DNA of 63,881 nucleotides, filler included, from Folioceros fuciformis (GCA_049999805.1; 16 parts of 16 records of this genome joined end to end with filler, not necessarily neighbours in it), one strand, 5' to 3'. Shown: positions 12,390 through 62,713, counted from the whole stretch's first letter. The notes: generated by a model from the sequence alone, not told the origin. Program-made: numbers and translations.

Positions 12390-13752
12390 CACATTAGTGA
12401 ATTGTTTAAGTGAAATTGTCATAATACATAAACCCATGTGCAATGGACGATTACTAAAGATTAACCCCCATTGGTACTGACAAATCCTTGTTTTTCCAAG
12501 ATTAAGCAAAGTAAATGGGGAATTATAAAAACGTGCAAAAAACCTGGTCGTGAAGGAATGTGACATGGGCACAAAGGGGTACAACTTGTAGTGGTAGATG
12601 GTATGTGTGCGACGGGTGTGAGAAGCGTGCACGTACAGCACTGCAAGTCGCCGCATGTCCTACAAGGGCAAGCATGCCGACTAAGAACATGCCATCTATA
12701 AAAGGGTACTAAAGGTGGAGAGGGTAACTAAGGTTTGCATGCCTAGTTGGACTCACTAGTGTAGGCAACTGGCATTGTTTCATGATCGGGCAATAGGAGG
12801 TTTTTTCATAAAAGGATGTGCATGATGGGATTCTAGTGATATAGAAATGATGGAGAAGGGAGGTCAAGTCATGTCTTAAACTAGAAAATACCATCATAAT
12901 GCTATCTTAAAGGTTATCATAACTCTTGGGCCATGGCACTAGTCATGTGAATGTGGAGGAGGAGCCACCCATGAAACGAGCCTGCTTATGGGTGGAGGAG
13001 GTAGAGGCACCCTTTGTGCCAACCCCCATGAATGTGAGCCCCTATAGCAAATGTATCTCGAAGGTGCAAGATTGGCATAACCTATTGTGGCAAAAGGTCC
13101 ACGAAGGTTTATAAATGTAAGTTGAGGCCAATGGTTTAGGTGGAGGCCTCAACTAAAGGCCACCTAATGCATAGTAAGTGGGTCCCTACCCCAACCCCAT
13201 AAGACTTATCATTGGACCATATAATAAAGGGAAGAATCAAGTAAAAAAATGTTATGTTGCGCGTTTTCTAGTATACTCACGTACTAGAGTATGCATGCTA
13301 CACTCTCATAAGCTACCTTGCCATCTCCGCAATTTCCAGCAATCACTTAACAGTATGGTTCTAGTCGCTTGCCCATGGTTTGGTGTGCTACAAGGGTTTC
13401 CCCATCATGAGGAGGAGTATATATATAGATAAATATAACTATAAATGGTTATCCACCACGAAGACATCTTGCTAGCTGCAAGTGGTTTAGGTCACAAAGT
13501 GCCTAGTTTAAACTCTTATTTTACCTTAAATAGCTATATCTTAGTTTTTAATATTTTGAAGCATTTCTAGAAGCCAATGCTCTTATTGATATGTAATCCC
13601 TAACTTATGTTATAATTGCCATGTACCTTGTATATTTACCTCATATGATTCAATGATGGAATTTTTTTATTATAGTATTATAATATATATTAGTTAGATA
13701 TTATACTAAAATGTATATTTTCAAACTAAGTTTTCATTTTGTTGTTTTGCAG

Positions 13753-13820
13753 ATGGTTTCCCGATATCAACCAAATCCTTATCACAATTTTCGTCATGCT
13801 TGTGATGTGTTACATGCAAC
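13753..13820 (+). CDS. CAPE: Isolated 68-nt exon of a class I cyclic-nucleotide phosphodiesterase domain (CAPE-like)
   Basis: TTTTGCAG| acceptor and |GTAAGA donor. Translates MVSRYQPNPYHNFRHACDVLHA(T), the NPYHNxxHAxDV metal-binding PDE motif. The CAPE assignment is inferred from the AC exon at 46559-47065. Confidence 0.8.
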
Positions 13821-14017
13821 GTAAGAAGATGTTGTGTTTTCAATCATGTGAAAACCATGTCCAACAATATATAAATATTTAAAATGTATTTTATATTCTT
13901 TTTACAATATCATTCATTATATCAATCACTTGTAAAGTTTATATTATTCCTTTGCACATTCCATTCCATTGATGGCTCCAACTCAAAGCAAATGAAAGTT
14001 GCGAGAAAGAAGAGAAA

Positions 14018-14182
14018 TGTAAAATTACACACTAATAATATATTCCAGAAAGTGTCATGTATATACCACATATACCAAAAGTCATGTCTCTTCAACTAAT
14101 GATACTAATAACCCTAACTCTAACTGCTGATACGTTTATAAGACATAAACCCTAATGGAATGGAACGGGGTTTATCCTAACA
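14018..14182 (-). repeat. 3' LTR (165 bp, TG...CA) with adjacent PPT
   Basis: Direct repeat of 20210-20354 with ~5 differences over 145 nt. CGCCCCCG (minus-strand G-tract) at 14183-14190. Confidence 0.92.
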
Positions 14183-17100
14183 CGCCCCCGTAAACGGAGC
14201 ACGCAGATAGATCAGATGTAGTGTGGTTGGTGCCATGGCAGGCTCTCTGTTTCAGTGCTTGTCACTCTGCACGTTTGCCATCGTAGTATTCCTCTTGTAT
14301 CAGTATCTGTGGGAGGAAGAAAAAAAAGGAGCAAAGGACGGACAAGAGGAAGAGCACGCCAGCTGCGTCACAACGAGTGGAGAGAATTCGCAATAGAGCA
14401 GAGATGGTAAGTTGCGAGCTGGGAGTGCCGGCTTTGGATCTCATTTGCCACAAGGGAAGGAGATGGAGAACCAGCACGGGGTGAGGAGGAAACACTGATG
14501 GACCACTTCAAGCATGCCGCTGCCAGTCCGCTACCTCAAGATGAGTAACTGACCACCTATAGAAAACTGCTAGAGCATGCGACTCAATGGAAGGTAAGAT
14601 TCATCCACCATGCTCTACAGCTAAAGTGAAGCAGCTAAGTGGTATTCGGACAAGCTTTAATGCCCATAGCCTCCTTGTGCAAATAATGCTTGTTAATGGG
14701 CAGATTCTTTGTCAATAGGTCTGCGGTGTTCAAGTCAGTGGAAACATACTGAATCCTCACTTGTTGTTGACTTACAAAATGCCTAATAAAGTGATTATGC
14801 ACTTCTATATGCTTTGTGCGAGCATGGAAGCAGGAGTTAGCAGTCATAGTGATGGTGGACATGTTATCACATTGTATAGGAGTTGACTATGACTGGGGAA
14901 ACCCAAGACCTTCCATAAAGCATCGCTCCCAAACTGCCTCCTTAGCTGCCTCGATCAAGTCTTTGTACTCTGCTTTTGTGGAAGACAGTGCGACCAAGAC
15001 TTGCTTCTTGGAAGTCCGGTGGATAGCAGTGCAAGACAACATGAAACAATAGGCAGAAATGCTTCGACGAGAGTCAGGGTTAGTGGCCCAATCTTCGTCG
15101 GCATAGCCACTCAAAGTAAGTTTCTCGTCAACTCGCCCCCAGAAGCAGATGCTGTGATTTATGGTGCCCCTTAGGTAATGAAGAATGCGCTTAACTGCCC
15201 CCCTGTGTGCTTGGCCAGGATTGTCCAGGAATTAGGAAACAGAGCTAACAGCAAACTGGATATCAGGACGAGTCTAGCAACGGAGGTAATTAAGACTGCC
15301 CACAGCATGTCTATAAGGAACGAGAGACATAACCTCCCGCTCAGCACCTGTATGTGGGCACTACTCAAGAGAAAACTTAGCTCTTGGAACACTAGGAGTG
15401 AACACGGGCCGAGCATCAAAAAGATTGAAACGGTAAAGAGTTTCAGCAATATACTTTGCCTGATGCAGCATAAGAGAATGACTAGAAGGATCTTGAACAA
15501 GCTGAACACCAAGCACATAGGTAAGTGCCCTAATGTCCTTCATATCGAACTTTTGCCTGAGCATGTCTTCAACCCATGCTAACAGCCTTGGATCATCAGA
15601 TACAAGAATGGCGTCGTCTACATACAATGCAAGTATGACCATATGTCCATCCTTGAAGTAGACGTATACGTTAGCATCACCAGGATTTTGTATAAAGCCG
15701 ATGGATTTCAGGTAAGCATCAATGGTCTTATACCATTCTCGTGCAGACTGTTTGAGGTCGTATATGGTTTTCTTGAGATGGCAAACCCAATCGGGGTGAT
15801 CAAGATCAACAAACCCTTCGGTTGCTCCATATAAATATCTTCCTCTAATTCCAGATAGAGAAATGCTGTGCAGACATCCATCTGTTGCAAATCCCAGGCA
15901 TTTGCTGCGGCCAAGTCCAGGATCATACGGATGGATTGAGTCTTAACCATAGGACTAAAGGTTTCTGTGAAGTCGACATCAGGAACTTGAAAAAAAACTG
16001 TGGGCCACAAGACGAGATTTGTATCTGACTATCTCACCACTGGCATTGAGTTTGTGTTTAAAAACCCATTTGCAACTAACAGCCTTGCGTCCTTCTGGCA
16101 GAGGACATAGCTCCCAAGTGTTATTTTTAACAAGGGAATCATACTCCTCTTTGATGGAGGGAATCCAGTGAAGTCTATAAGCTCCTGAAATGGCTTCATG
16201 GTAAGTCCGAGGTTCAGGCTTGATGTGAGAAGGAGCGGATGTAACATGAGCTTGAGGAAGACTCAAGATTGCAGCTTGGGGCTGCTGAAAATCTACGAAG
16301 GTATAGCAAGGTTCTTCCATTCTGATGGAGGAAGTCGTTGACGAGTGGAGTAACGACGTTCTTCTGGTGTGCAAACTCAAGAACTAGTGCTACAATAGGA
16401 CCCTCTTCAAGAGAATCGTGCAACAGATTAATAGAGTCACCTAGATCTGATCCGGCTAAGAATTCAGATGTGTCGTCTGCAAACCCCACTTCGCCTAGGT
16501 CATAAACGGGGTCCTAGAAATTTACACCACCGCCTTCAGAGTTTTCTGGTGCAGGGAGGTTGCGTGGAGGATCATCAAGTGGTACACGAGCTGCTACAGG
16601 TGCTGGATTGGCCAAAACAGGAGCTTGACTAATGGGGAAAGGACCTTCGTTAGCTAAAGCTGCGATTTGCAGGAAGTGTATTTGTAGCTGGAGCTGAAAC
16701 CTGAGTACTTTCAGGCAGGTCATCATGGGGAAATAGAGTCGGTTCGTCAAGGTCAGAGATCTCTACACGAGTTACTATAGGCTCTTGGCTTGAAAGTAGA
16801 AGGTCGAAATAGGGCTTAGTAGGGGACAGGAGCTCCTTAAAGGTAACACTGCGTGCAAAAACGGCATATTTGCTTTGAGGATCTTACAACTTGTATGCTT
16901 TAGCCTCTTTGCCATATCCTACAAAAAGAAAGGGTGTAGCTTGGTCTTCTAATTTCCTCCTCTTTTCTGCAGGGATATAGGTGTAAGCTGGAGAGCCAAA
17001 CACTTGCAAATGAAGAAGATTGGGCTTCCTTCGCCAAATCACGTCAAAAGGAGTTTGGCCTACAACTACGCTCGTGATGATCTTGTTAAGGATGTAAGTC

Positions 17101-20100
17101 GCCGTTACCACTGCTTCAGCCCAATAATATTTGCTGAGCCCAGACCATTCTAACATATTGCGTGTCATTCCCAACAGGGTTTGATTGCAGCGTTCAGCAA
17201 CGCCACTTTGCTGCTAAGTATACGGAACAATCAGTTGCCTGATAATCCCCCTATCCAGTAATAATTGGTTGAAATGGTAGTGGACAAACTCTGTCCCATT
17301 ATCTGTTTGAAGACACTTCAATAGGTAGCCTGTCTACCTTTGCACAATTTGAAGCCATTCCTGGAACACGCCAAAAGTGTCTAACTTCAAATGAAGTGGG
17401 TAAGTCCAAGAATATCTGCTGTAATCATCTATCAGGGTCAGATAATACTGAGCACCACCTAGTGAAGGGATGTGTATCTTGCCAGAGATGTCCGCATGAA
17501 CTAAATCCAGAATGTGGGAGGCCTTGTGAGCAACTGCCTTTGGAAAAGGAATCTCCTTTTGCTTGGAAATGACACAGGCATCACAAAGTGGCAAGTCTTT
17601 GAAGCATCTAGGCAGGGGTTCTTGGAAACATGTCATGTCAGACATGTTGACTAGCTTACCATGATTGGCGTGGCCTAGTCGAGCATGCCACAAACTGGCT
17701 TGAGCAGCTTGTGACAATTGGGCAACGTGAACAGTCTCTACAGGTATGGATCTAGATCCATTTGATACAGGTCATGCACTAAGTGCCCTTTTGCTACAAT
17801 ATGATCTGAGTTTCCTTTCCTTTTGAACAAATAGCTAGAGGAAGAAAACATCAGATCGTACTGCCTTAAGGACATAAGCTAACTGATGGAAATGAGGTGC
17901 TTGGCCATGTGAGGTACGTAAAGGACGTTATCCAAGTGGAGGACAGGTCCATCATGGAGCTTGAAATGACATGATCCAACACCTTTGATGCGAAGACCTG
18001 CTCGAGTAAGTTCATCTCCTAGCAGCACTTTGTCAGTAGGATGAGAGGACCGAAAGTGACTAAGGAGTGACTTGTCATTACAGATATGAGACGTTGCACC
18101 AGAATCTAAGTACCAATTATTAGGAGAAGAAACAGTAGAAGACACAAAACACATTGTCATCACCACAGGCGGTTTGTTCGACGAAGCTTGTCGATCTTTG
18201 GCAACCATGTGAGCTTCAGCCTGCCTTGAAGGCTTCTCAGTTCTGCGGGGTTCCCCAGACTTTTTCTTCCTACATTCTCTCTCCCAATGGCCTTGGGTGC
18301 CACACCAATGGCATGCGCCAGCCCGTTTACTGGTAACAAGTTTGGAAGGGCCTGCTCCGTATGATTTGTATTTATCCGAGTTTCTCCCTTTGGTGAACAG
18401 TACTTTATCTGTTTTGGTTCTGCCTCCATAGTGACCTGAGATTGCCCGGCTTTGCTCTTCCTGTAGGAGAGCTCCAACGACATCAGTGAAGTTGATGCGA
18501 ACAGCCTTGCTTGCGGCTACTGCCTTGTCAACTGCACGTATGGAAGCACCGAAGGTTTGGTAACTCGGAGGAAGGCTTGTGAGCAATTGGGCAACAGAGT
18601 CCAATTCGGAGAAGGCACACCCCAAGCTGATAAGTTGGGATCAGAGATTGCAAAACTTGAGGATGAAGGGAGCAACTTTCTCCCCTTCCTTCAGCCTTAA
18701 AGAGAAGAGCTCTCCACAAACAGCACACATGGTGAGAATGTTTTTCACGGCATATGTCTGAGTGAGCTGATTCCATATGTCCTCGACCTTGTTCAGATAA
18801 GCAACATCGGGCATGAGGACGGCATCCAAGCCACTAATCAAGTAAGCACGAGCGACATTATTAAGATGTTGCCACTTGTCCTTCTCGTCCTGTGTGGCTG
18901 ATGAAGGTGGTTTGGGCACCACCCCACTAACAACCCCCCATACGTGACGAGCTTCAAGTGCAGAAGTCATTCGCACGCACCAGACTTCAAAATGAGTACC
19001 ATTGAAGCGGTCTCGCTCTTTGAATTCTGCAATATATGAGGGAACCAGAGTGCTATGTTGTGGAGGACTTGCACCGGTGCCAGATTCGGACCCTGTGCCG
19101 GTGCCAGGGCTAGAGCCAGAGGCTGATGCTGTTCCTGCGGCTGCAACTGTTCCAGTGGAGTACGTTGTGCCGGAGGCGGAGCTTAAGACGGAGCTTGAAC
19201 CTATTGTTCCTGACATTGTGATCTTGTGTGTAGGGTAGTGAGTAACCAAGCGTGAGCGTATCCTGGTGAAGTCGCTGCTTTAACAGGGGATCGAGATGCC
19301 ACGGAAAAGAGGCAGTCAGATCAGGCAAGTGAGCATCAGGAGCAGCACGTTGGTTCGGGGAAGATGCCTTCTGGGAAGACGCGCCTTCTCCACAAGTGAT
19401 GTGGCGCGCAGGGCAGGTTGTTAGCACGACTGTTCCCGCCGCCACACGATGTTTGGATTCTCGCCACAAAATCACATGGGAGGAAGATTCCCTTGCTCCC
19501 GAGTGGGGACCCGTGAAAGGTACATGACAACGTCAATCATTGTTTCTGTGCTGTGACGCCTCTGATTTGTTGATTCAACAGTGAGATTCTGCACAAGAGA
19601 AAGCGAGAAGAGAATCTTGACTTTCCTCTTGTTGATTCTCGACCAGACGGCTTTCTCCAAATGACTGCTCGAGACCTTCGACCCGTGCGTTGAGAGAGTT
19701 AATGCGCAAGGCTAAGAAGACTCCTAGTGAATCTCTAACGCACGAAGCTAGTGAAAATTTTGCTTGTCTGTTCCAATTTCCTTCAACGACGTTACACCAA
19801 GAGACGAAGAGTTAGGCCGTAGTGGCAAGAACTCAACTCTCCTATTTGGTGGGGATTGGGGCAGCCTGTTGCGGCGATTCCGATGCCGGTATTGATTAAT
19901 GTCAATCACTCGGTCATCAATGTGCCTCCCACCCTGACGTGCCATAAACAACGAGATAAGTAAAACATTGAAGTTTTTGTTTATAGAAGATGGCGCAGCG
20001 GAATTGTATCTCCTGTCTTTTCCAATTCAGACATTGCAATACAGGTTGTGAGATTATGTTGGGCACACAATTGTAGCAATCGTCATGATGGCGGTGGCTG

Positions 20101-20197
20101 ATTATTGTGCCCAATTGTATGCCTCACAACTAGTATTGCCAACAATATTTTCAGAAGACGGACATAGATAGATAGAATAGGATCAGAGAACGAGGAT

Positions 20198-20354
20198 GCT
20201 CTGATACCATGTAAAATTACACACTAATAATATATTCCAGAAAGTGTCATGTATATACCACATATACCAAAAGTCATGTCTCTTCAACTAACCGATACTA
20301 ATAACCCTAACTCTACCTGCTAATACGTTTATAAGACATAAACCCTAACGGAAT
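20198..20354 (-). repeat. tRNA-iMet PBS (20198-20209) plus 5' LTR (20210 to gap)
   Basis: GCTCTGATACCA is the reverse complement of TGGTATCAGAGC and directly abuts the LTR copy. Confidence 0.92.
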
Positions 20355-43475: not shown

Positions 43476-43575
43476 NNNNNNNNNNNNNNNNNNNNNNNNN
43501 NNNNNNNNNNNNNNNNNNNTTAATTAATTAANNNNNNNNNNNNNNNNNNNNNNNNNNNNNNNNNNNNNNNNNNNN

Positions 43576-44084: not shown

Positions 44085-45428
44085 ATACAGGTAGACCATG
44101 CATTCTTGATATTGCAAATTGCTCACAAGCAACCCACAACTTCAGCATAAGACACAAGGCTCATGTCAGAAATCGCATCCTGACTCTGTGGTGACATGGC
44201 TTGTGTCAATTTCTCCCCCACAGCTGATGGTGTGGTCACAGGACGAGCTGCATACAGATTAAATCGCTTCAAGATTTCCTTAAGGTACTTGGTCTGATGG
44301 AATATGATCTGACCTGCTTGCCTATTTCTAAGTATATGAATTCCTAAGCAAAACTGGAGTTCTCCGTGGTCAGTCATTTCAAACTCATGTCGTAACATGT
44401 CTTTAACTTTGTCCATCTGGCCTAGGTCATTACTCAATAAGACACAGTTATCAACATACAATGCCAAGATGACAAAGAGAGCACCTGAAGATAGAAGACA
44501 TTGGTATCTGCCAACCAGATCCTAGTAGCGTGCCCCTCCTTCTAAATGTCACGGAAGCATCCTAGTGCGCCTGTCGGATACCGATGCCAAGGCTAGATCG
44601 AACGCGCCGGTTTAAATCTCAGCCTCCCCTTACAGCGGAAGCATAAAAGCTAGAAGGATGAGACACCACCATCTCTGGTGGTGCCTAGCTTATCCAGGCT
44701 CCTGCCTGTGTTGCACTCGACTCGGCAGCCACTGGGTCCGCCACCTTCTGGCCGGCGCTCAATCCCATTGAGCACGATAATCTGCAAGAAAAGCCTCCTC
44801 CTGCGCTGCTCACCTGGTCGCCTCCTGCGCCTCCATCACCCGGAGCCACCGTTCGAAGAAATGGCTGTGTGGATGGCAGGTTGTACAGGCAGCGCGGGCG
44901 AGGTGGGGTAGAGACCCTAAACCCTAAAGCCGCATCTCTGTGACAAAGACTAGTAACTCTAGGGATGAATATATCCCAAGCAGCCAAGTGTGATTTGGTG
45001 GTTTTAGAGCTGTGTGTGCCATAGGTGGTCGCGGGTTCAAGTCTTGCTGCATGCATACCTCCACACCACATGTGTCTTATGTGGCCAACAAGATCCTCAA
45101 CCTCGTAGTTGGGGTCGCATCCTTAAATCGGATTTCGCCTTCCATCCCGTCTTCAGCTTTGCGATTCTCGGATGTAATCCCGCCTAGGCATTTTTTAAAA
45201 TCTTGTGTGGCTAGTGCATGGCTCTGATACCATGTAAATGGTGTGCAAGGTGTAGAGGTTGTGCGAGTAGTTGTTACCAAAATTGAATGAATAATACAAT
45301 GAAAATGTTTACAAAAATGTGTTTTTATACTCATGACCTAGATTCACGCTATTTCACTTCGACTAAACATATTTAATCTAAATTAAATGTATATAACCGT
45401 AAGTGTGATAGACCTTGTTATCTTAACA
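44085..45428 (-). mobile_element. Internally deleted Copia: 5' LTR (45233 to ~45428), PBS (45221-45232), leader joined directly to an RT fragment
   Basis: GCTCTGATACCA|TG; RT remnant ALYVDNC...EFEMTDHGEL..CLGI at 44123-44467. Confidence 0.75.
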
Positions 45429-46558: not shown

Positions 46559-47065
46559 TTATTTTTCTGTTAACTCACGATAACCTAACCAATTTAATGG
46601 AGATCAATAATTGTAAGATGCCATGTAACTCATCAATAATTGGTTTATCAGAGGGCCATAGTTGTAAGCACTCCTCTAACTTTTGTAGTGCAATATCCCA
46701 TTTGCCTTATATGTAGTTATCCACAGCAGACTCAAAGAGGTCTCGATAATCTGATGGGTGTCCTTTTAAATCTTGTTGAAATAATGGCAAATCATAAGTA
46801 TATAAAAATAATGGCTCCACACTTCCTTTTAATGTAACTCGATCAAGTTTTCTACAACAAGCTCTCAAACTGCTTTTTGTTAGATGAGAGATCACTGTCT
46901 CTGAAATCAAGATCATGACTCCATATTGTTTTGTTGCTGCTTCCAAGCGAGATGCCATGTTAACATGAGGGGAGAGATAGGAAGGATCAACTTTATGCGA
47001 AGACCCAATTGCTCCTTCAATTGCCCAACCTACATGCAATCCAAATCCCATGTGTATCCTATAAC
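46559..47065 (-). pseudogene. CAPE: Terminal exon of a class III adenylyl cyclase domain (CAPE-like) with two premature stops and a frameshift
   Basis: TTTTCAG| acceptor, then GYRIHMGFGLHVGWAIEGAIGSSHKVDPSYLSPHVNMASRLEAATKQYG...DRVTLKG. TAA at 46707-46709; the frame continues GKWDIALQKLEECLQLWPSDKP, shifts near 46640, then reads LLMSYMASYNY*SPLNWLGYRELTEK* (TGA 46604-46606, final TAA 46559-46561). Confidence 0.85.
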
Positions 47066-47383
47066 CTGAAAATGTGTGAACAAATATATTGATTTAAAAT
47101 AGTTCAAAGTAATTTGTTTGAAGAAAAACGCAATTACATATAGGATTATACTACGTAGCTTTTAACAAAATTGAATGTATTGAGATATTATGTTATCAAA
47201 GAGGAATGTGTAAGGTCCACAAAGATCGAAAGACTATTATGGGATTAGAATATTGAGGCGAATACGTCTCTGTGAGCCAAGGANNNNNNNNNNNNNNNNN
47301 NNNNNNNNNNNNNNNNNNNNNNNNNNNTTAATTAATTAANNNNNNNNNNNNNNNNNNNNNNNNNNNNNNNNNNNNNNNNNNNN

Positions 47384-47851
47384 GGGAGGGGAATGGGGGC
47401 GGCCGCAACCCCTGCCTCTAGCTCTAGCTAAGGCATGGCCTCCATGGCTGTTCATGCCAGCCAAGCAATCAGCCAGCCTATCATCAGACCCTGACCCCTG
47501 ACATTGACATACCCAGATGCCTGTTCCTATGTTCAAACCATTATATTATTATATTATTATATTATTATTATATTATATATCTTTAATTAATATTAAACTA
47601 ATCACCCAACCCTATGGCCTGGTACCAAACCTAAACCTTCCTAGGTCTGGGACCAGACCTATACCCACTCTCATAACCAAACCAACTATTTCCTAGTCAA
47701 TTAACCTAATTAACACAAAGAAAAATAGGAAAAATGACCAGAAAATAAAGGAAAATTAGGGAAAATAAGTTGAAATAGAAAACCAAACCATACCACTATT
47801 AACCCTTTTTCAACCAAAACAAACTACTACCCCAAACTTTGGAGGTTCACA
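47384..47851 (-). repeat. Repeat family R1 terminus, copy 3
   Basis: Collinear over its whole ~470 nt with 49967-50445; abuts Copia gag. Confidence 0.9.
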
Positions 47852-49966
47852 CTCTCCTTAAGTATTTCAGATGCTATGGTCATACAGATCACGGGATGTG
47901 AGTCTCCGAAGGATGCATGGGACATACTCATGAGGAACTATGGGAATATCACACATGCTAGGAAAATCGAGTTGAAGCAGCAGTTCAACAACTTGTCATG
48001 AGGTAGTAGATCCATACTCGTGTATACAGCAGAGGTGAAGACCATAGCTGATTAGTTTGCTACAATTGGTGCAAGAGTGAGAGAAGATGAGACGGTTGCA
48101 GTTACTATGAAGGGACTTAGCAAGGAATACAAGTCCTTTGACACATCAACCTCTGCGAGAGTTGAGTCCCCAAGTTGGGATGAATTGGTTGCTTTATTGC
48201 TGCATGAGGAAGTTAAGCTTGGTTTGAACACAGGTTCAGGTATGTCTCAAGGGAGAGACATTGTTTTGTTTTCTAACCAGCGTGGGAGAGGCCACAGAGG
48301 TCGTGGTTCATTCTGAGGTCGGGGTGATGCTCGGAACACGCAAAATCAATAAGACAATTGGCGTGGAGGAAATGCGCAAGGCCAGAGAGGATCTGGAAGT
48401 TTCAGAGGCGCAGGTAGAGCCCACAAGAGGAACAGATGGTTCTTTTCAATCTCCTGACCATTCCAATAGAGACAAGAAGTGTTACTACTGTGGAGAGGTT
48501 GGTCATATTGCTAAGGATTGCTATAAGCAGCAAGTAGACATAAGAGGAAAAGGAAGGCCGCATCGGAACTATGCCTCCTCTAGTAATGCTGGAAATGACC
48601 AGGAATAGGTTGTTTGCCATGCAACATCTCTCTGAACAGGATGGGCAGAATGATGAGAGATGGTACATTGATTATGGAGCATCAAACCACATGACTCCGC
48701 ATGGCGAGTGGTTTAACAAGATGGATTTAGGTCCTCATGGTCATGTGTGTACAGGAGATGACACACAACATGACATAAAGCATGAGGAATTGTTCCTCTT
48801 AGGATGCCAAATGGTCAGCAGAAGAGTCTGCAAGATGTGTTGCATGTTCCAAGCATTCCGAAGAACCTGTTGTCTGTTGGACAGATGGCTGAAAAAAATT
48901 TGCAGGTTCGATTCAATAAAGATGAATGCTTTATTGAAGAATATGACAGAGGGTGCAAACTGATTGCTAAATGTAGTAGGAATTGACGGATGTTTACTCT
49001 GGATGCATCCATTCTAGAGCTAAATGCAGCAATGTTTACAAATGATGCAGGTGCCATACATGATGTTGAAATATGGCATAAAAGGATTGGGCATGTGAAC
49101 ATAGAGAAGCTGAAATCTATGCAACATAAAAGCGTGGTGGAAGGATTGCCCAAGTTTAAGTATGCTGATCTTGGTCATGTGTGTTTTACATGTCAATTTG
49201 GAAAACAGTCAAGGTTTCCATTTGTGCGACACATGCAAAATAGCTCGAGACCTTTGCAATTGATACACTGTGATGTATGGGGTCCTTCACAGACTGCATC
49301 GTTTGGAGGAGCCCACTACTATGTCTCCTTCATTGATGATTTCAACAGGTACACGTGGCTGTACATACTGAAGCATAAGGATGAAGTGTTCGAGTCTTTC
49401 AAGGACTTCAAAAAGCATGTTGAAAATGAATTTTAGTTGCTCCATCTCTTGTCTAAGATCAGATGGAGGGGAAGAATATGTCTCAAATAAGTTTGACAGG
49501 TATCTTGCAGATCATGGTATACGAAGACAGCTGACTTGCAGATACACACTACAGTAGAATGGTGTTGCAGAGAGGAAGAACAAGGTAGTCATGGAAACAG
49601 CAAGGGCAATGCTGAATGAGAAGTGCTTACCTAATGATTATTGAGCAGAAGCCGTGATGACAACATTGTATGTACTGAATCAAAATCCTACTACAGGAAT
49701 TCATGATGCTACACCAAATTAGAGACTGTATGGCTATAAGTCGGATATTAGGCACTTGAAAGTGTTTGGGTGCATTGCATATGTGCATGTACCTGATGAT
49801 AAGCGTAGGAAGCTGGATCCTAAAGCAGTGAAGAGTATTTTTCTGGGGTATGCTCGAAATAGGAAGGCATATAAGTGTCGTGTGCCATCCACACATGAGA
49901 TCCGGATAAGCAGGGATATGGTATTTGATGAGTTAGCCTCCTGGTATAGCAACTCAGTTACACTAC
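47852..49966 (+). mobile_element. Decayed Copia gag-PR-IN (a different family from the other Copias here)
   Basis: CYYCGEVGHIAKDC, WYIDYGASNHM, WHKRIGH, IHCDVWGP, IDDFNRYTW, KVFGCIAYVHVP; multiple stops. Confidence 0.92.
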
Positions 49967-50941
49967 TGTGAACCTCCAAAGTTTGGGGTAGTAGTTTGTT
50001 TTGGTTGAAAAAGGGTTAATAGTGGTATGGTTTGGTTTCCTTTTTCTACTTCTTTTCCCTAATTTTTCTTTATTTTCTGGTCTTTTTTGTGTTAATTAAG
50101 TTAATTGACTAGAAAATAGTTTGTTTGGTTATTAGAGTGGATACAGGTCTGGGACCAGACCTGGGACAGTTTAGGTCCGGTACCGGGCCATAGGGTTGGG
50201 AAAGTTTGAGTCTAGGTCTGGTGATTAGTTTAATATCAATTAAAGATATACAATATTAAATGATTAAATAATGATAGAATATATAAAATAAAAAAATAAT
50301 GGTGTGAACATAGGAACGGGAATATGTGGGGTATGTTAGTGTCAGGCGTCAGGCTAGCTGATTGCCTGGCTGGCCTAAACGGTCATGGAGGCCGTGCCCT
50401 AGCTAGGGCTAGAGGCAGGGGTTGCGGCCGCCCCCCTCCCCCTCCCCTTTCTCCCTTCCTCCTTCATTCCCTGTTTGTCCCGCTTCCTCTTCTTCCCCTT
50501 CCCTCTCCATCTCTTTTATCCTGCTTCTTCTTTTGGATCCACATTGTAGGTAGACTGGGTGATGGGAATGAGGGCAAGCACAGAAGGAGTATGAGGCGAG
50601 CTAGAGGATTCGGCTGATGCAGGGCCAGGCCTGCCTCCATCTTCTCCCTAATTTCTTTTCCCGTTCCCCTCCTACCCTGTCCCGATTTCCTCCCCAATCT
50701 ACAGCCCTACTGCTAGATCGGCCTTGCTTCCGCTGTTGTCTCACTACTGGTGCTGCCATTTCCTCCTTCCTTCCTAATGTTTTAGGGACCGTATACGGTT
50801 TGTATATGTATCCCCCTTATATTTTATATGGTTTAGATATGTATTAATACGTATCAATATGTATACCATATACATATACCCATATTTCTTATCTTTTTAT
50901 TTTCCTAATTCCCCTTTTTCTATTTTCACCCCTATTTTTCT
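49967..50941 (+). repeat. Repeat family R1, longest copy (4), truncated at ~50941 where it is fused to Copia RT
   Basis: Begins TGTGAACCTCC. On the right, the minus-strand Copia frame (G*IVLHQTKY) extends to ~50942, so no second terminus is visible. Confidence 0.85.
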
Positions 50942-52914
50942 GGTATTTCGTTTGATGCAGGACAATCTAACCATGCGTCCTGCGCCTCAAGATCTGTATA
51001 CCCAGGCAAAACTGCAGATCACCCTGGTCGGTCATCTCAAATTCCTGGCATAACATGTCCTTTACCTTGTCAAGCTGACTAGTGCTATTGCTCAAAAGCA
51101 CACAGTCGTCAACATATAAGGCAAGAATTACAAACAGAGAACCATCAGCCAAGTAAAACACGTTGGTGTCTGAAGGTGATTGAGTGAATCCGAGGTTGCA
51201 TAGATACTTCATTATTCGTTTGTACCATGCACGTGGAGACTGCTTAAGACCGTGTATTGTCTTCAACAGCTTATAGACTTTCATGGAAGTTTTTGGACTA
51301 ATATATCCTTGTGGTTGATCCATGTAGAGCGTCTCCTCAAGTTCTCCGTGCAAAAACGCAATGCACACGTCCATTTGTTGTACCTCCAAGTCTTACTCAT
51401 ATGCCATTGCTAGTAGTATGCAAACTGAAGGAGGTTTGGCAGGTGGTGAAAAGGTATCACCATAATCGATTCCAGGAATTTGGCTGAATCCTCTAGCCAC
51501 CAATCATGACTTATAACGGGCAATAGTTCCGTCTGCCTTGAGCTTGGTCTTAAATACCCATTTACAGCTAATGGGCTTCCTTCCTTCAGGTAAGTCGACC
51601 AACTCCCAAGTTTTGCTCTTAATGAGTGAGGCATACTCATCATCAAAGAATTTGCGCCAATGAAGGCCATCAGGGCCATTGATGGCTTCATCATATGTCT
51701 CAGGGTCAGGCCGGACTTCAGGTACAGAAAAGTCTGCTACATGTGCTTGTGATCCCCTTCTAAAGTCTGTAGACTGCTATGGGGGCTCAGACCATTGCTC
51801 ACGAGGTCGTCTGTCCCTTGTGGGGTAACGAGATTCGGCAACAACGTCTAATTCAGTTGCTCCCACTGTTGAGATAGGGAGCACATCCTCATCATCCTCC
51901 AGCACTGAACTAGTGGAATCAGATTGTGCCTCCTGAACATCTAGGAAACCAACATGTAAGTCTGCCGCATTATCATCACTTGTAACATCATTGTCCAGTC
52001 CTTGTGACAGTCCTTCTTCATCAGAATCTGGATAGTCAGCTGGTTGTTGATTAGCAAGTTGTGGTGGAATTGCTGCAGGTACTACATGTTCTACAGCTTC
52101 AGCAGAGGGGTCTAGATCTGTACTTTCATCCTTATGATACACATGTGGGTCAGAATCGTCCATGACAGATGCACAAGTTCCGGAATAAGTCTTCAAACTC
52201 TTCCGTGGTGACGAAGGCTCGTCAAAGGTAACACTACTAGCTAACACCTTTTTCTTGGTTGCTGGCTCATATAGCTTATGTATGCCTTAGACACCTCAGA
52301 GTAACCAAGAAACAATAAGGGCCCCGCCCTATCATCAAGCTTACGTCGTTTCTGTTTAGGTATGCATGCATAGGCTGTGGATCCAAATACTCGCAAGTGA
52401 AGAAGACTCGGTTTCTTCTTCCAAAAGGCTTCGTAAGGAGTTTTACCAGGTACGCTAGTTGTCAACACTCTGTTCAGTATATAAGCAGCTGTTGTAAGGG
52501 CCTCTACCCAATAGTGTTTAGGCAATCCTGCCCATCCTAGCATACTTCTTGTCATGCCCATTAGTGTCTGATTCTCACGCTCGGCTACCCCATTCTGTTG
52601 TTGTGTATAAGGAATCGAGAACTGTCTCATAATTCCTTGTGCTTCAAACAGCTCATCATATTGGAGTCCAACAAACTCATCTCCGTTGTCAATGTGAAAG
52701 CACTTCACTAAGTTTCCAGTCTGTCTTTATACTATAGCAATCCAATTCTCGACACATTCAAAGGCATCATTCTTGAGGCGAAGTGTGTATACCCAAGTGT
52801 AACGTGAATAATCATATGTTAGTGTCAAGTAATACTCTGCCCCTCCTAGTTACTTAACTTGCAGTTTGCCTGCAATATGAGCATGGACAAGTTCTAACAC
52901 TGCATTTGCCCTCT
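50942..52914 (-). mobile_element. Copia integrase-RT fragment
   Basis: [37 protein letters not shown]. Confidence 0.93.
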
Positions 52915-53254
52915 TGTGAACCTCCAAAGTTTGGGGTAGTAGTTTGTTTTGGTTGAAAAATGGTTAATAGTGGTATGGTTTGGTTTTCTTTTTCCTAATT
53001 TTTCTTTATTTTCTGGTCATTTTTCCTATTTTTCTTTGTGCTAATTAGCTTAATTGACTAGGAAATAGTTGGTTTGGTTATTAGAGTGGGTACAGGTGTG
53101 AACCTCCAAAGTTTGGGGTAGTAGTTTGTTTTGGTTGAAAAAGGGTTAATAGTGGTATGGTTTGGTTTTCTTTTTCAACTTATTTTCCCTAATTTTCCTT
53201 GATTTTCTGGTCATTTTTCCTATTTTTCTTTGTGCTAATTGGGTTAATTGACCA
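52915..53254 (+). repeat. Repeat family R1 copies 5 (from 52915) and 6 (from 53097, nested in copy 5)
   Basis: TGTGAACCTCCAAAGTTTGGGG occurs twice, 182 nt apart; the two copies differ by a small indel and substitutions. Confidence 0.9.
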
Positions 53255-53410: not shown

Positions 53411-56400
53411 AGGTCCCAAGCGTTTGCTGCAGCTAGAGCAAGTATCATGCGAATAGACTGGGTCTTCACCACCGGACTGAAAGTCTCTGTGAAGTCAATG
53501 CCTGGAATCTGGGACCCCTAGCCACAAGCCTAGACTTGTATCGAGCAATCTCACCCTGAGCATTTAATTTATGTTTGAAGACCCACTTGCAGCTGACAAC
53601 TTTCCGACCTTTAGGTAAGGGGCACAATTCCCATGTATCGTTCTTTATCAAGGAGTCATACTCGTCCTTGATCGAGGGGATCTAGTGTGCCTTGTCAGCG
53701 CCCGTGATTGCCTCCCGATATGACTTGGGTTCAGGCTTGATGAAGAGTGGATTGCTGACAGAAGACTTGGATTTTGGCAGGGCTACTCCAGCTCTAGGAC
53801 GTCGAAAGTCAAAAGAAGCATATGGAGGTTCTGTCCACTGCGCGGGAGGATTCCTGCTGCGCTGAGGATAACGACGTTCTTCAGGCTGGGTAACTACGGG
53901 AACTTCAGCCACATCATCATCGTCAGAAGCAGAACCAGGTAAATTATCATTCAAGTCTGAATCAGTGGAGTGGACAGAGATATCTTCTGCAGCTAGATCA
54001 TGTTGAGCCTCATCCTCTGCTGCAGGCTGTTCCCTGACATCATTAGTATCAGAATCTTGGTCTTCTGGAGCCAAGTGAGCAGGCAGTGCTTCATGAGCAG
54101 CTGGATCAGGAGCCTGAAAGTCTGCCATAGCAGGGTCATTGGCCTGTGGATGTGCAGGACCCGCTCCAGGGTTTTGCACAGCTGCAGGAGCCTCAATGAG
54201 CACGACTCCAGGTGTGTCGTCTTGTGGAAATTCGGATGAATCTTCCATGTTTGCCAAGTCCACATGAGTTACTCTTTCACTGTTGTCTGACATGTGATCA
54301 AAGTATGGCTTGGCAGGACACACAAGTTCCTTGAAGGTCACGCTTCTGGCAAAGACTGCTGTCGAGGTAAGGGGGTCAAGCAACTTATAAGCTTTAGCCT
54401 CTTCACCATATCCCACAAAGACAAGTGGGCGTGCTCTATCTTCTAATTTTCGTCGCCGCTCTTCAGGGATATATGCATATGCTGGGGAGCCGAATACCCG
54501 CAGATGCAGCAGGCTGGGCTTCCTTCGCCATATTACCTCAAACGGAGTTTGGCCATCCACAGCACTTGTAAGAAGCCTATTAAGAAGATAAGTCGCTGTA
54601 ACCACTGCCTCTGCCCAGTATGCTTTGCTCAAACCTGCCCATTCTAACATACTTCTCGTCATTCCTAGCAGAGTCTGGTTACGACGTTCAGCAACACCGT
54701 TCTACTGCTGTGTATAAGGTACAATCAGCTGTCGTACAACTCCCTTTTCCAGCAGAAACTGGTTGAAGTGAGCATGGGTAAACTCTCCCCCGTTGTCAGT
54801 ACGAAGCTGTTGGAGCAAGCATCCCGTCTGCCTCTCCGCCATCACCAACCATTCCTGAAAGACCTCAAACGTATCCGACTTCAACCGGAGAGGGTATGTC
54901 CAGGAGTATCTACTAAAGTCGTCAGTGATGGTAAGGTAATATAGGGCACCACCTAGAGAGGGGACATGAATCTTGCCTGAAATGTCCGCATGTACTAACT
55001 CTAGTACCTGTGATGCGCGATGAGCCACAGATTTAGGAAAGGGAATTTCCTTTTGCTTGGCTATGACGCAGGCATCACAAAGAGGTAAGTCTCGAAAACA
55101 TTTTGGCAAGGGCTCTCTATAGCAGTTCAAGTTCGACATTTTTAGCAACTTGTCTCGATTAGCATGACCTAATCTAGCATGCCATAAGCTGGCTTGAGCA
55201 GACTGTGATAGGTGGGCGGCATGCACAGACTCAGGGGGAATGCATGTGAGATCAAGCTGGTACAGGTCATGAAAGAGATGTCCTTTAGCTACGACCTGTC
55301 CATCCCCCCCTCGCTTCTTAAGTTCACAACTATGAGAAGTGAAGAGGAGGTCGTACTCTCTAGAAGACATGAGTTGACTGACTGAAAGGAGGTGCTTGGC
55401 CATGAGGGGAACGTGCAGGACGTTGTCAAGATGGAGGATGGACCCATCGTGCAACCGAAAACGACATGTGCCAGACCCAGCAATGTGCAGACCTGTACGG
55501 GTAAGCTCATCCCCCAGCAAGACCTTATCAGACGTGTGAGAAGGTCGATAGTGACTTAGTAGATTTCTGTCATTGCAGATATGGGAGGTTGCCCCAGAAT
55601 CTAAGTACCAACTATGAGGGGAAGGAGGACCTACAGACGATGCGAAACAAACTGTCATAACGACAGGAGGTTTGTTAGCAATTGATGAAGGCTTAGCGAC
55701 AGTGTGGGCCTCAGCCTGCTTAGGCTTCTCGACCTTACGAGCTTCGCCAGCTTTCTTTTTTCTGCAGTCCCTCTCCCAGTGGCCCTGGATGCCACACCAA
55801 TTGCAGGATCCAGGCCGCTTGCTGGAGGAAGGTCCAGAAGGTGAATCACCAGAAGGTGGCCTTCCCTTCTGTCCTTTATGCTGCTTCTGTCCTTTAGTAT
55901 AAAGGACCTTGTCTGTTTTTGTTTTGCCACCCTGTGGTGTAGAATGAAGCCGGCTTTGCTCCTCTTGCAGGAGGGCACCAATCACGTCCACAAGGCTGAT
56001 TTGTGGTGCCTTGCCAGCAGCTACAGCTTTGTCTGCCGCGCGAATGGAAGCTCCAAAGCCGGAAACGATAGTCTGGTAACTGGGTGGTAAGCAAGTGAGG
56101 AGTTGGGCGACAGCATCCAACTCAGGGAACTGAGATCCTAGGTTCAAGAGCTGAGCCCGTAACTGTCGAAACTTGACGACGAAGGGTCCCACCTTCTCGC
56201 CTTCTTTAAGTCTCATTGAGAACAGTTCTCCACGGATTGCACACTGTGTAAGTATGTCCTTTGCCTCGTACGTTTGTAGCAGTTGTGTCCAGATTTCGTT
56301 GGAGTCTTGCAGGTAAGCCACATCAGGTAGAAGTACCTCATCAAGTCCACTAATCAGGACCGCACGAGCAACATGATTCAGGTTGTCCCATTTTTCAATT

Positions 56401-57911
56401 TCATCCGCTGGAGCAGTTGATGCTGGTTTAGGAATGGAGCCACTAGCAATGCCCCACACGTGCCGCGCCTGCAGAGCAGCTGTCATGCGAACACGCCATC
56501 CATGAAATTTCGTGCCATTAAAGCGGTCTTTCTCCTTAAACTCCATAGAGAACGACGGTGCTGAAATCATAGGCACTGGTGGGAGAGGTAAGACAACCAC
56601 TCCTCCCCCTCCACCTCCTGCGCTACCTCCTCCTCTCCCTCCACTTCCGCCTCCTACCCCTGTGACCATGCTGACCTGCTTTGTGAAGAAAGGCTAATCC
56701 GGATGATCAGGCCGGAACAGGTTCTTCAAAAAGTGGGTCAAGATGGCTGAAAGGTGGAGCAACGAGCAAGGTGGAAGGGGTTTGCAGCGAGGTCAGATGC
56801 CACAGGACACCGCGATGGGTGTCGGTTGACGGTTAGAGTCAATGTATGGCTGACGTGGTGTTCTTCGCATGGCTGATTGCAGGGTCGCGTCCTGTGGATT
56901 CTTGCTGCGGGCAGACACCAGTGACTGAAGGCGCCTCCCGCCAGAAAGCACAGCGAACACGGAACCCCTATGCGCGCCCTACCGCGTTGAGGACAACGCT
57001 TGAAATCTGGGCTTCTCGCGAGCAGGGGCAAGCGCACGGAGCAGGTCTGTTGAGGCAGGATTCTGGCCCAATTCTTGCGCTGATTTCCTTTGCAATTCAG
57101 TCACGAGATCATTGAGTTTCCTGACATCCTCAATCAGCGTTGTCTGCTTGCTGCAGAAAGAGGTCAATCGCGGCTAAGGTTTCTTGATGACGCGCGGTGT
57201 GCACTTCACCCTGTCGAGAAAGCACAGTAAGCAAAGTTGATTCTGTGGTGTTCAACCTTCCACTCAGCACTCGGTAGGCTCCAACTATCTCCGGCAGGTT
57301 AGTGGCCCGAGATCGGAATGTTTCCCGCAAATCGTCCTCATACGAATCTCGAAATTCAGGATGTCTCTGTATGTGCACCCTGGTTGAAGTCCGAGATAAA
57401 GGCAATGTGTACAGTATATCTTCCTGGCCTGCATGATAGTTTCGTATGGTCCTGGAAGCCTGATCCTGATGCCTTGTTGTGGGTCGATTGCAGGATAACG
57501 GGGACGACTGCTCACCGCGGGAACGCCCCCGTCGTGTCATCTTTAGTTAGAGCGACATGATCTGCTGTATAGCGACAGTCAGATACGCGCAGCGAAAGTC
57601 TCTGATTTGCTGTCATGCGTGTTCTTAATCAGACTATCTTGCTAATATGGTAATGCAGGTAGTAAGAAAGATTTTCGACACATGATCCTGGAATCACAAT
57701 TTCTGTGATTCAAGGATTCTGTGTCCTATAATCTATTCTTACTACATTCGTCTATCATAGCCAAATACACTAATGCAGACAGTAAAATAAGATAATGTAT
57801 CATAGCCAAAGCTCTGATACCATGTTGATAAAATCAGATGTACTCATGCGCACAAAGTGCTGGTAATGAAAAAAAGTTATATTAATGAATATACAAAGTG
57901 TCTTATATATC
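53411..57911 (-). mobile_element. Relatively young Copia: 5' LTR (57823 to gap), PBS (57811-57822), upstream ORF, gag-PR-IN-partial RT
   Basis: 655-aa ORF 54702-56669 continues in the same frame through two TAG codons (54702, 53682). Contains CNWCGIQGHWERDC, WYLDSGATSH and TDNGGEF. Clearly related to 14018-20354. Confidence 0.96.
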
Positions 57912-62613: not shown

Positions 62614-62713
62614 NNNNNNNNNNNNNNNNNNNNNNNNNNNNNNNNNNNNNNNNNNNNTTAATTAATTAANNNNNNNNNNNNNNNNNNNNNNNNNNNNNNN
62701 NNNNNNNNNNNNN

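What the first reader, a model, noticed from the sequence alone, without database searches (positions are those of the whole stretch)
46559..47065. CAPE-type adenylyl cyclase exon that appears to be pseudogenising
Seen: a class III AC terminal exon with an intact catalytic core (HVNMASRLE, TLKG) but three lesions within ~100 nt (TAA, frameshift, TGA) before a recognisable ...WLGYRELTEK* end. Established: CAPE (combined AC with PDE) occurs in streptophytes with flagellated sperm and is antheridium/sperm-associated in Marchantia and Physcomitrium. Inference: this is a dead or truncated copy of a sperm-motility gene. It could be a degenerating allele on a female (U) or accessory chromosome, a redundant duplicate, or a sign of relaxed selection on swimming sperm.
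Basis: partly seen in the sequence, partly recalled or inferred. Interest (0 to 1): 0.75.

Follow-up and report, generated by a model that had tools for sequence, protein, structure and literature searches.

The report
Broken last exon of hornwort CAPE
This is the last exon of a hornwort copy of CAPE, the cyclic-AMP enzyme that liverwort sperm need to swim straight, and it carries two premature stop codons and a five-base deletion near its end, so it is probably a recently disabled gene copy sitting in transposon-rich DNA.

Summary
On the minus strand, 47065..46559 is a splice-acceptor-bounded terminal exon that aligns to residues 1071-1240 of Anthoceros agrestis CAPE at 97% identity. It has exactly the three lesions described: TAA for Q1190 (46709-46707), a net 5-nt deletion near 46643-46634, and TGA for R1226 (46606-46604).

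New context:
- The window is 16 short contigs joined by artificial linkers. The exon lies on a 3.7-kb contig, so the other exons cannot be expected beside it.
- A second, intact CAPE exon (PDE motif) lies on another contig at 13752-13823. A copia retrotransposon is inserted 193 nt after that exon.
- All five amino-acid differences from AaCAPE occur in functional orthologues, and the branch lengths are symmetric.
- The published AaCAPE 3' primer differs at 3 of 25 bases, all silent.

So this copy evolved under constraint for most of its history and the lesions are young. The first stop removes a conserved, confidently folded tail.

Best reading: a recently inactivated CAPE copy from a close relative of A. 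agrestis. Copy number, chromosome and read support could not be tested. Assembly error or a truncated but working allele remain possible. Interest is modest.

The parts
46559..47065 (-). Terminal exon of a CAPE gene copy. It encodes the C-terminal part of the class III adenylyl cyclase domain plus the conserved tail, homologous to AaCAPE residues 1071-1240. It is 507 nt where an intact exon would be 512 nt.
47066..47283 (-). Upstream intron fragment, AT-rich. The acceptor AG is at 47067-47066 after a ttttc tract. It is cut by the contig end at 47283.
46707..46709 (-). Lesion 1: in-frame TAA where AaCAPE has Q1190. It is the first stop and would remove the last 51 residues.
46634..46643 (-). 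Lesion 2: a net 5-nt deletion causing a frameshift between P1212 and M1217. Q1214 and V1215 are affected. The exact bases lost cannot be named without the AaCAPE nucleotide sequence.
46604..46606 (-). Lesion 3: TGA where AaCAPE has R1226, in the frame that carries ...MSYMASYNY*SPLNWLGYRELTEK.
46559..46583 (+). Site matched by the published AaCAPE-r primer (3' end of the CDS including the stop codon). There are 3 mismatches in 25 nt, all silent: stop TGA vs TAA here, GAA vs GAG, GGG vs GGT.
44111..44494 (-). Partial Ty1/copia reverse-transcriptase relic about 2 kb downstream of the CAPE stop, on the same contig.
13752..13823 (+). Second CAPE exon on a different contig (12189-20354). It encodes MVSRYQPNPYHNFRHACDVLHAT, 22/23 identical to AaCAPE aa 62-84 (PDE domain, HNFRHA motif). 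It is intact, with an AG acceptor and a GT donor.
14017..20354 (-). Copia LTR retrotransposon inserted 193 nt after the PDE exon. The LTR pair is 14017-14161 / 20209-20354 (96.6% identical over 146 bp; the second copy is cut by the contig end). Internal gag, integrase and RT fragments lie at 14890-19532.
47284..47383 (.). Artificial linker (44 N + TTAATTAATTAA + 44 N) marking the contig boundary 218 nt upstream of the exon. The matching linker at 43476-43575 bounds the other side of the contig.

Best explanation
This is the genuine 3'-terminal exon of a CAPE gene copy (combined adenylyl cyclase and cAMP phosphodiesterase). It comes from a hornwort closely related to, but not identical with, the A. 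agrestis Oxford locus that was cloned as cDNA.

Shown:
- The copy kept its intron-exon structure, so it is not a retrocopy.
- It diverged from AaCAPE almost entirely by silent or tolerated changes.
- It carries TAA at codon 1190, a net 5-nt deletion about 24 codons later, and TGA at codon 1226.
- Copia retrotransposon sequence lies next to this exon, and a copia element is inserted 193 nt after the only other CAPE exon in the window.

Inferred:
- The copy was under purifying selection, tail included, for most of the time since it split from the AaCAPE lineage.
- It was disabled recently. The stops most simply arose by C-to-T changes (CAA to TAA, CGA to TGA).
- Because the first stop is in the last exon, a transcript would probably escape nonsense-mediated decay. 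It would give a protein with PDE, membrane and cyclase core but without the last 51 residues.
- Those residues form a conserved helical module and terminal strand, so the product is probably impaired or inactive. That makes this a young pseudogene in repeat-rich, poorly assembled DNA.

Whether an intact CAPE exists elsewhere in the same genome is unknown.
For: Identity as CAPE:
- 97% identity to AaCAPE over the whole exon.
- Sister to AaCAPE in a 16-row tree, support 94/79.
- An AG acceptor at the position where the homology starts.

Lesions: see the translations in three frames and the tblastn alignments.

Constraint until recently:
- All 5 amino-acid differences are states found in other CAPEs: C1140 in Physcomitrium and Selaginella, L1148 in Chara, D1169 in nearly all, S1183 in Ginkgo and Chara, L1215 in Selaginella.
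- End branches are 0.013 (window) vs 0.017 (AaCAPE).
- The 23 residues right after the TAA are 23/23 identical to AaCAPE.
- The AaCAPE-r primer site, downstream of all three lesions, differs at 3/25 nt, all silent. Only 16 of 75 possible single changes there are silent, so P is about 0.01 for 3 of 3.

Importance of the tail:
- The W.G[YF]REL.EK end is conserved from Cymbomonas to Cycas, and G574, W576 and D593 of Ceratopteris are invariant in 40 sequences.
- In an AlphaFold model of the Ceratopteris homologue the tail forms helices 557-573, 576-589 and 594-605 and strand 618-620, at block pLDDT 93-98.
- The stop maps to residue 573 (offset 617 from the ungapped alignment).

Against a generally error-ridden assembly:
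- There are no frameshifts in the first 430 nt of the exon.
- The PDE exon is intact.
- ORFs of 1224, 663 and 388 codons occur on neighbouring contigs.

Transposon context.
Against: - No reads, depth or second assembly were available, so none of the three lesions is verified.
- The contig is short (3.7 kb) and stands alone between linkers, the kind of piece where consensus errors concentrate.
- If this is the species' only CAPE locus, a dead gene conflicts with the male-sterile phenotype of Marchantia CAPE mutants in any sexually reproducing hornwort.
- If it is a duplicate, both copies must have been kept under constraint for a long time. That is unusual for Anthoceros genomes, which show no whole-genome duplication (PMC8075897, passage read).
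- The silent-change argument rests on 3 differences and assumes the primer copies the A. agrestis genome exactly.
- No experiment shows that the tail is required.
- The link between the two CAPE exons on different contigs is not shown, and they are in opposite orientations in the window.
Confidence: 0.55

Rival explanations
1. Assembly or base-calling artefact. The locus is the intact CAPE orthologue of this species. The two T-for-C stops and the 5-nt gap are consensus errors on a short, low-coverage or heavily methylated, repeat-flanked contig that polishing did not reach.
For: - The contig is 3.7 kb and bounded by linkers. The contigs in the window break at repeats; for example, 159 bp at the start of contig 2 is 100% identical to the end of contig 13.
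- Apart from the three lesions, everything looks like a constrained, working gene.
- Both stops are the T-for-C type. My own knowledge, not tested here, is that this type can arise from miscalled modified cytosines in some long-read data.
Against: - Three independent errors within 106 nt, two of which happen to create stops, are unlikely when the other 400 nt of the exon and the PDE exon are clean.
- A 5-nt deletion outside any homopolymer run is not a typical consensus error.
- Long intact ORFs on neighbouring contigs argue for good base accuracy.
Confidence: 0.18
2. Truncated but working allele. The TAA at codon 1190 is real and fixed, and the protein ending at ...AVDNYI keeps PDE and cyclase activity. 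The former tail has become 3' UTR, where the deletion and the TGA then accumulated harmlessly.
For: - All three lesions lie at or after the first stop, and the 119 codons before it are clean. This is the pattern expected if only the upstream part stays under selection.
- The stop is 37 residues past the end of the Pfam cyclase match (AaCAPE 964-1152).
- A stop in the last exon should not trigger nonsense-mediated decay (general knowledge).
Against: - The tail is conserved to its last residue from prasinophyte algae to cycads, and it carries a precomputed Pfam family of its own (PF26726) in most hits.
- It is modelled as a well-packed module at pLDDT 93-98.
- Silent-only differences at the very end show that the tail was translated until recently.
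- No full-length-tail-less CAPE turned up among the hits examined. The one short tail, Ginkgo Gb_03587, is a gene model, whereas the GbCAPE cDNA is 1259 aa.
Confidence: 0.12
3. Isolated exon relics. The two CAPE exons in the window are not parts of a gene but fragments that were duplicated or carried along by transposon activity or segmental rearrangement, and they are dispersed in copia-rich DNA.
For: - Only 2 CAPE exons are detectable in the window, even with a very permissive tblastn.
- They lie on different contigs and opposite strands.
- No neighbouring CAPE exon lies within 1.5 kb upstream or 6.5 kb downstream of the PDE exon.
- Copia sequence adjoins both exons.
Against: - Both exons keep canonical splice sites and non-repetitive flanks that look like native intron.
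- The missing downstream exon is explained by a copia element of at least 6.3 kb inserted in the intron and by the contig end.
- Fragments free of selection would not show silent-only divergence and a short branch.
Confidence: 0.08
4. Recoding. The two T-for-C stops are corrected in the transcript by hornwort-type U-to-C RNA editing, or are read through, so that the gene is functional.
For: TAA for CAA and TGA for CGA are exactly the kind of genomic stops that hornwort organelles repair by U-to-C editing. This is general knowledge; no call tested it.
Against: - CAPE is a nuclear gene and such editing is known only in organelles.
- The 5-nt deletion cannot be repaired by base editing. It would replace the conserved ...MSYMASYNYRSPLNWLGYRELTEK end with an unrelated 20-residue tail.
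- The gene's own terminator here is also TAA.
- CAA-to-TAA and CGA-to-TGA are also the commonest mutational routes to a stop.
Confidence: 0.01

Closest known systems
AaCAPE, Anthoceros agrestis (Oxford) CAPE, 1240 aa, LC588317 / A0A8D5GBY9 (Yamamoto et al. 2021, PMC8115329)
   Same: - 163 of 170 aligned positions in the terminal exon and 22 of 23 in the PDE exon are identical.
- The exon starts at the same residue (G1071).
- The HVNMASRLE motif and the ...WLGYRELTEK end are the same.
   Different: - Two stop codons and a net 5-nt deletion in the last 51 codons.
- Five amino-acid substitutions in the terminal exon, plus A to S in the PDE exon.
- 3 of 25 silent nucleotide differences at the primer site, including the stop codon itself (TAA here, TGA in AaCAPE).
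- So this is not the cloned A. agrestis locus.
MpCAPE of Marchantia polymorpha (Kasahara et al. 2016, PMC5159850; Yamamoto et al. 2024, PMC11032487)
   Same: - Same family and domain order.
- 80% identity over the terminal exon.
- It is the member with experimental evidence: adenylyl cyclase and PDE activity, antheridial expression, and a requirement for linear sperm motility and male fertility.
   Different: MpCAPE is intact. No function has been tested for any hornwort copy, and the Marchantia mutants were cut inside the AC or PDE domain, not in the tail.
Cryptomeria japonica CAPE cDNA clones #1 and #2 (PMC8115329)
   Same: These are CAPE sequences carrying disabling changes. Clone #1 has a frameshift that separates the PDE and AC reading frames. 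Clone #2 has a 42-bp insertion in the AC region.
   Different: - They are transcripts from a conifer without swimming sperm, and the authors interpret them as possible splice variants.
- Here the lesions are in genomic DNA of a lineage that has swimming sperm, and they are confined to the tail.
Class III adenylyl cyclases with solved structures (OaPAC 4yus, bPAC 5mbd, CyaC 1wc1, CyaB 3r5g)
   Same: The catalytic fold of the CAPE-type cyclase model matches them at Foldseek E 9e-13 to 1e-7.
   Different: They are 21-29% identical bacterial enzymes. I did not inspect whether any of them has a counterpart of the conserved CAPE tail.

Membership tests
CAPE (combined adenylyl cyclase with phosphodiesterase) | C-terminal class III adenylyl cyclase catalytic domain | tested here: met
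   - Pfam Guanylate_cyc at 27.5 bits against a cut-off of 21.9, covering profile positions 98-173 of 183.
- Only the C-terminal half of the domain lies in this exon.
- It is identical to AaCAPE there except S1140C and V1148L.
CAPE (combined adenylyl cyclase with phosphodiesterase) | N-terminal class I PDE domain in the same polypeptide | tested here: inconclusive
   - A PDE exon 22/23 identical to AaCAPE aa 62-84 exists at 13752-13823.
- It is on a different contig and the opposite strand.
- Physical linkage to the cyclase exon is not shown.
CAPE (combined adenylyl cyclase with phosphodiesterase) | [quoted passage not shown] | tested here: not met
   - No window sequence matches AaCAPE aa 85-1070, even with a permissive tblastn.
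- This shows absence from the window, not from the genome.
CAPE (combined adenylyl cyclase with phosphodiesterase) | Placement inside the streptophyte CAPE-AC group, next to the hornwort member | tested here: met
   - Sister to AaCAPE with support 94/79.
- Path length 0.03, against 0.33 or more to any other CAPE.
- The deeper branches of that 16-row tree are unresolved.
CAPE (combined adenylyl cyclase with phosphodiesterase) | Conserved C-terminal tail ending W.G[YF]REL.EK | tested here: met
   The tail is recognisable at the DNA level (25/27 residues in the shifted frame), but it is interrupted by the stops and the frameshift, so it would not be translated.
CAPE (combined adenylyl cyclase with phosphodiesterase) | Expression in antheridia or sperm, and cyclase and PDE activity | not testable with these tools
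   No transcript data or assay for this organism was available.
Pseudogene (non-processed) | Disabling lesions relative to a functional homologue, with intron-exon structure retained | tested here: met
   Two in-frame stops and a net 5-nt deletion, with an AG acceptor and flanking intron retained.
Pseudogene (non-processed) | Lesions real in the organism's DNA, and the locus not producing a functional product | not testable with these tools
   No reads, no transcripts, and no access to the rest of the assembly.
Pseudogene (non-processed) | Relaxed constraint (faster protein evolution, dN/dS approaching 1) | tested here: not met
   - The branch is no longer than AaCAPE's (0.013 vs 0.017).
- 3 of 3 nucleotide differences at the 3' end are silent.
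- All amino-acid differences are tolerated states.
- This is compatible only with very recent inactivation.

The most novel reading that the evidence does not exclude
This is the only CAPE locus of the sequenced hornwort, and the lesions are real. The plant would then either make a CAPE lacking its universally conserved C-terminal module or make none at all. In the first case the tail would be dispensable. In the second, this lineage or culture would have lost straight-swimming sperm very recently, through relaxed selection on male function in a clonally propagated or effectively unisexual population. It would be caught at the first step of the CAPE loss that accompanied the loss of motile sperm in seed plants.
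Probability: 0.15. Interest if true: 0.65.

Novelty: new member of a known kind. Interest (0 to 1): 0.3.

Why it matters
CAPE is so far the only adenylyl cyclase shown to matter for a land-plant function. Marchantia mutants have sperm that cannot swim straight and are male-sterile (PMC11032487). Its presence tracks motile sperm across streptophytes (PMC8115329).

A freshly broken copy in a hornwort would matter in one of two ways. It could be an ordinary young pseudogene in transposon-rich DNA, which is useful mainly as an annotation warning. If it is the sole copy, it would be a natural experiment on whether the conserved tail is needed, or on how quickly sperm genes decay when sex is not used.

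The evidence here cannot tell these apart. It does show that the decay, if real, is recent, and that the tail was under selection until then.

Tried and rejected
- Other CAPE exons in the window. A permissive tblastn (word size 2, E up to 1000) with AaCAPE found only the terminal exon and the PDE exon. All other hits of 55% identity or more were 6-16 residues long and not collinear. The AaCAPE forward primer had 0 matches at up to 3 mismatches.
- Identifying the organism. Rfam gathering-threshold scan of the whole window: 0 matches. The 'near'-length protein search found nothing above 87% identity, so the window's own gene models are not in the protein collection. The 1224-aa ORF on contig 1 gave no Pfam hit, no atlas lead and no homologue.
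- Copy counting. Copy number, chromosome assignment and read support stayed unchecked.
- dN/dS. The AaCAPE nucleotide sequence (LC588317) is not in any tool. The paper's supplement held no primers or nucleotide sequence ('primer' occurred 0 times). Only the 25-nt reverse primer in the Methods could be compared.
- An intron that would splice out the TAA was rejected, because the homology runs collinearly and ungapped through the stop.
- U-to-C editing or readthrough was rejected because of the 5-nt deletion.
- A retrocopy was rejected because the intron and acceptor are retained.
- PMC12131699 was opened for 'CAPE', but the word there matched only an author name (Capella-Gutierrez).
- The local Pfam copy lacks PF26726, so the name of the tail family was not seen.

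Full report
**What the window is.** The 63,881-base window is not one stretch of chromosome. It consists of 16 contigs of 1.0-12.1 kb joined by 15 identical linkers of 44 N + TTAATTAATTAA + 44 N. The finding lies on contig 12 (43576-47283, 3708 bp, 41% G+C). Anything beyond 47283 or before 43576 is therefore unrelated DNA. The absence of other exons next to this one says nothing about the gene.

**Check of the observation.**
- On the minus strand the sequence reads ...ttttcag|GTTATAGGATACACATG..., so there is an acceptor AG at 47067-47066. An exon runs from 47065 to the TAA at 46561-46559.
- The frame opening at the acceptor reads GYRIHMGFGLHVGWAIEGAIGSSHKVDPSYLSPHVNMASRLE...RVTLKGS...AVDNYI, then TAA. 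It continues GKWDIALQKLEECLQLWPSDKPI before running into unrelated residues and a TGA.
- A second frame carries ...QLLMSYMASYNY, then TGA, then SPLNWLGYRELTEK and the final TAA.
- Pfam recognises the adenylate/guanylate cyclase catalytic domain (27.5 bits, cut-off 21.9).
- With the 118 residues before the first stop as query, 1572 of 1660 scored candidates had E of 1e-3 or better. The best was the 1240-aa Anthoceros agrestis CAPE (E 1.5e-68, 97% identity).
- The next hits, at 75-84% identity, were Riccia, MpCAPE, a Ginkgo model, Physcomitrium, Selaginella, Cycas and two ferns, followed by Chara at 69%. The exhaustive representative search gave the same top hit (E 4.9e-69).
- tblastn of AaCAPE on the window aligns aa 1071-1213 to 47066-46638 (138/143) and aa 1214-1240 to 46642-46562 in another frame (25/27).
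- The exon is 507 nt where an intact one would be 512 nt, so the frameshift is a net 5-nt deletion. It is not in a homopolymer run.

**A second CAPE exon.** The same tblastn found a second piece of CAPE on contig 2.
- It lies at 13752-13823 on the plus strand and is bounded by ...ttttgcag| and |gtaagaag.
- It encodes MVSRYQPNPYHNFRHACDVLHAT, 22/23 identical to AaCAPE aa 62-84 in the PDE domain. This exon is intact.
- An LTR begins 193 nt after this exon. Its partner lies at the contig end (14017-14161 vs 20209-20354, 96.6% identical). Copia gag, integrase and reverse-transcriptase fragments lie between them.
- So a copia element of at least 6.3 kb sits in what should be the next intron, and the contig breaks inside its LTR.
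- The start of contig 2 is another repeat shared with contig 13.
- On contig 12 a partial copia RT relic lies about 2 kb beyond the CAPE stop.
- A very permissive search found no other CAPE exon in the window.
- This CAPE copy thus lies in copia-invaded DNA that the assembler could not join.

**How this copy has evolved.**
- In an alignment with twelve CAPE-type sequences, all five amino-acid differences from AaCAPE are states seen in other species: C1140 in Physcomitrium and Selaginella, L1148 in Chara, D1169 in almost all, S1183 in Ginkgo and Chara, and L1215 in Selaginella. At 1169 and 1183 it is AaCAPE that is unusual.
- In a maximum-likelihood tree of 16 rows the window exon is sister to AaCAPE (support 94/79). 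The end branches are 0.013 and 0.017. Their distance of 0.03 is about a third of the Riccia-Marchantia distance. On this measure the window copy has not evolved faster than the expressed gene.
- The only AaCAPE nucleotide sequence I could reach is the reverse PCR primer printed in the Methods of Yamamoto et al. 2021 (PMC8115329; abstract, five sections and Methods passages read). It covers the last 25 nt of the CDS.
- That primer matches 46559-46583 with 3 mismatches: the stop codon (TGA in A. agrestis, TAA here), GAA/GAG and GGG/GGT. All three are silent.
- Only 16 of the 75 possible single changes in that stretch are silent, so three of three has P of about 0.01 under unconstrained change.
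- This stretch lies downstream of all three lesions. The differences from A. agrestis therefore accumulated while the tail was still being translated and selected.
- Likewise, the 23 residues directly after the TAA are 23/23 identical to AaCAPE.

Two conclusions follow. First, the window is not the cloned A. agrestis Oxford locus. It is either the orthologue of a close relative or an old, long-constrained paralogue. Second, the lesions are young relative to that divergence.

**What the lesions would do.**
- The first stop falls 37 residues after the end of the Pfam cyclase match in AaCAPE (964-1152) and removes 51 residues.
- That tail is conserved to its last residue from the prasinophyte Cymbomonas to Cycas (W.G[YF]REL.EK). 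It carries its own precomputed Pfam family (PF26726) in most hits. It also contains three of the invariant columns of a 40-sequence alignment.
- I modelled the Ceratopteris homologue with AlphaFold, using that 40-sequence alignment (623 aa, mean pLDDT 81.8). The tail forms helices 557-573, 576-589 and 594-605 and a terminal strand 618-620, at block pLDDT 93-98.
- With the ungapped offset of 617, the TAA maps to residue 573. It would delete two helices and the terminal strand.
- The catalytic part of the model matches solved class III cyclases: OaPAC at E 9e-13, and also bPAC, CyaC and CyaB.
- That the tail is required for activity is an inference from conservation and packing, not a tested fact.
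- Because the stop is in the last exon, the transcript would probably escape nonsense-mediated decay (general knowledge).

**Weighing the readings.**
- Best reading (0.55): a real, recently inactivated CAPE copy in repeat-rich DNA.
- Main technical rival (0.18): assembly error on a short orphan contig. Against it, the other 400 nt of the exon and the PDE exon are clean, ORFs of 1224, 663 and 388 codons occur on neighbouring contigs, and the indel is 5 nt long.
- Truncated but working allele (0.12): it fits the fact that every lesion lies at or after the first stop. That clustering is weak statistically (P 0.11 or, post hoc, 0.027), and the tail's conservation argues against it.
- Dispersed exon relics (0.08): these would not show silent-only divergence.
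- RNA editing of the two T-for-C stops (0.01): an attractive thought in a hornwort, but it cannot repair a 5-nt deletion and is unknown for nuclear genes.

**What stayed open.**
- I could not count CAPE copies, place the contig on a chromosome, compare sexes, or see reads or transcripts.
- The evidence for constraint until recently argues against long-standing relaxation.

**Context from the literature.**
- In Marchantia, CAPE mutants make normal-looking sperm that swim in circles or not at all, and the mutants are male-sterile (PMC11032487, passages read).
- Anthoceros genomes show no whole-genome duplication (PMC8075897, passage read).
- Hornwort accessory and sex chromosomes are discussed in PMC12409103 (passages read), but nothing there bears on CAPE.

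**Verdict.** This is a new, apparently broken member of a known gene family, of modest interest unless it proves to be the organism's only CAPE.

Noticed in passing
window 1-63881; linkers at 12089-12188, 20355-20454, 21755-21854, ... 62614-62713: The window is a chain of 16 separate contigs (1.0-12.1 kb) joined by 15 identical 100-nt linkers (44 N + TTAATTAATTAA + 44 N). Adjacency across a linker carries no biological meaning.
   Followed up: yes
window 13752-13823 (+), contig 2: An intact 72-nt CAPE exon from the PDE domain (MVSRYQPNPYHNFRHACDVLHAT, 22/23 identical to AaCAPE aa 62-84). It has canonical AG and GT flanks and lies on a different contig and strand from the finding.
   Followed up: yes
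window 14017-20354, contig 2: A copia LTR retrotransposon inserted 193 nt after that PDE exon. The LTR pair is 96.6% identical over 146 bp and the contig ends inside the second LTR. The internal ORFs are broken into many pieces.
   Followed up: partly
window 1055-4726 (-), contig 1: A 1224-codon open frame (serine-rich, partly repetitive) with no Pfam hit, no protein-atlas lead, and no homologue at E of 1e-3 or better among proteins of 673-2142 aa. It could be an orphan gene, a large exon, or an unclassified element.
   Followed up: partly
window 12189-12390 vs 47651-47852, 49967-50152, 52915-53254: A roughly 200-bp repeat family at the start of contig 2, with four copies on contig 13. One copy is 100% identical over 159 bp at the very end of contig 13. 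This indicates that the assembly broke at repeats.
   Followed up: partly
contigs 4, 8, 13, 14, 15, 16 (e.g. 23481-25100, 48228-52726, 53685-56693, 58520-61832, 62962-63579): Most contigs of the window carry Ty1/copia gag, protease-barrel, integrase or RT fragments. The longest is a 663-codon gag-to-integrase frame at 54705-56693. The window is essentially a sample of copia-rich, unassembled DNA.
   Followed up: partly
window 46559-46561: This copy terminates with TAA, whereas the A. agrestis primer implies TGA at the same position. That is a stop-for-stop substitution.
   Followed up: yes
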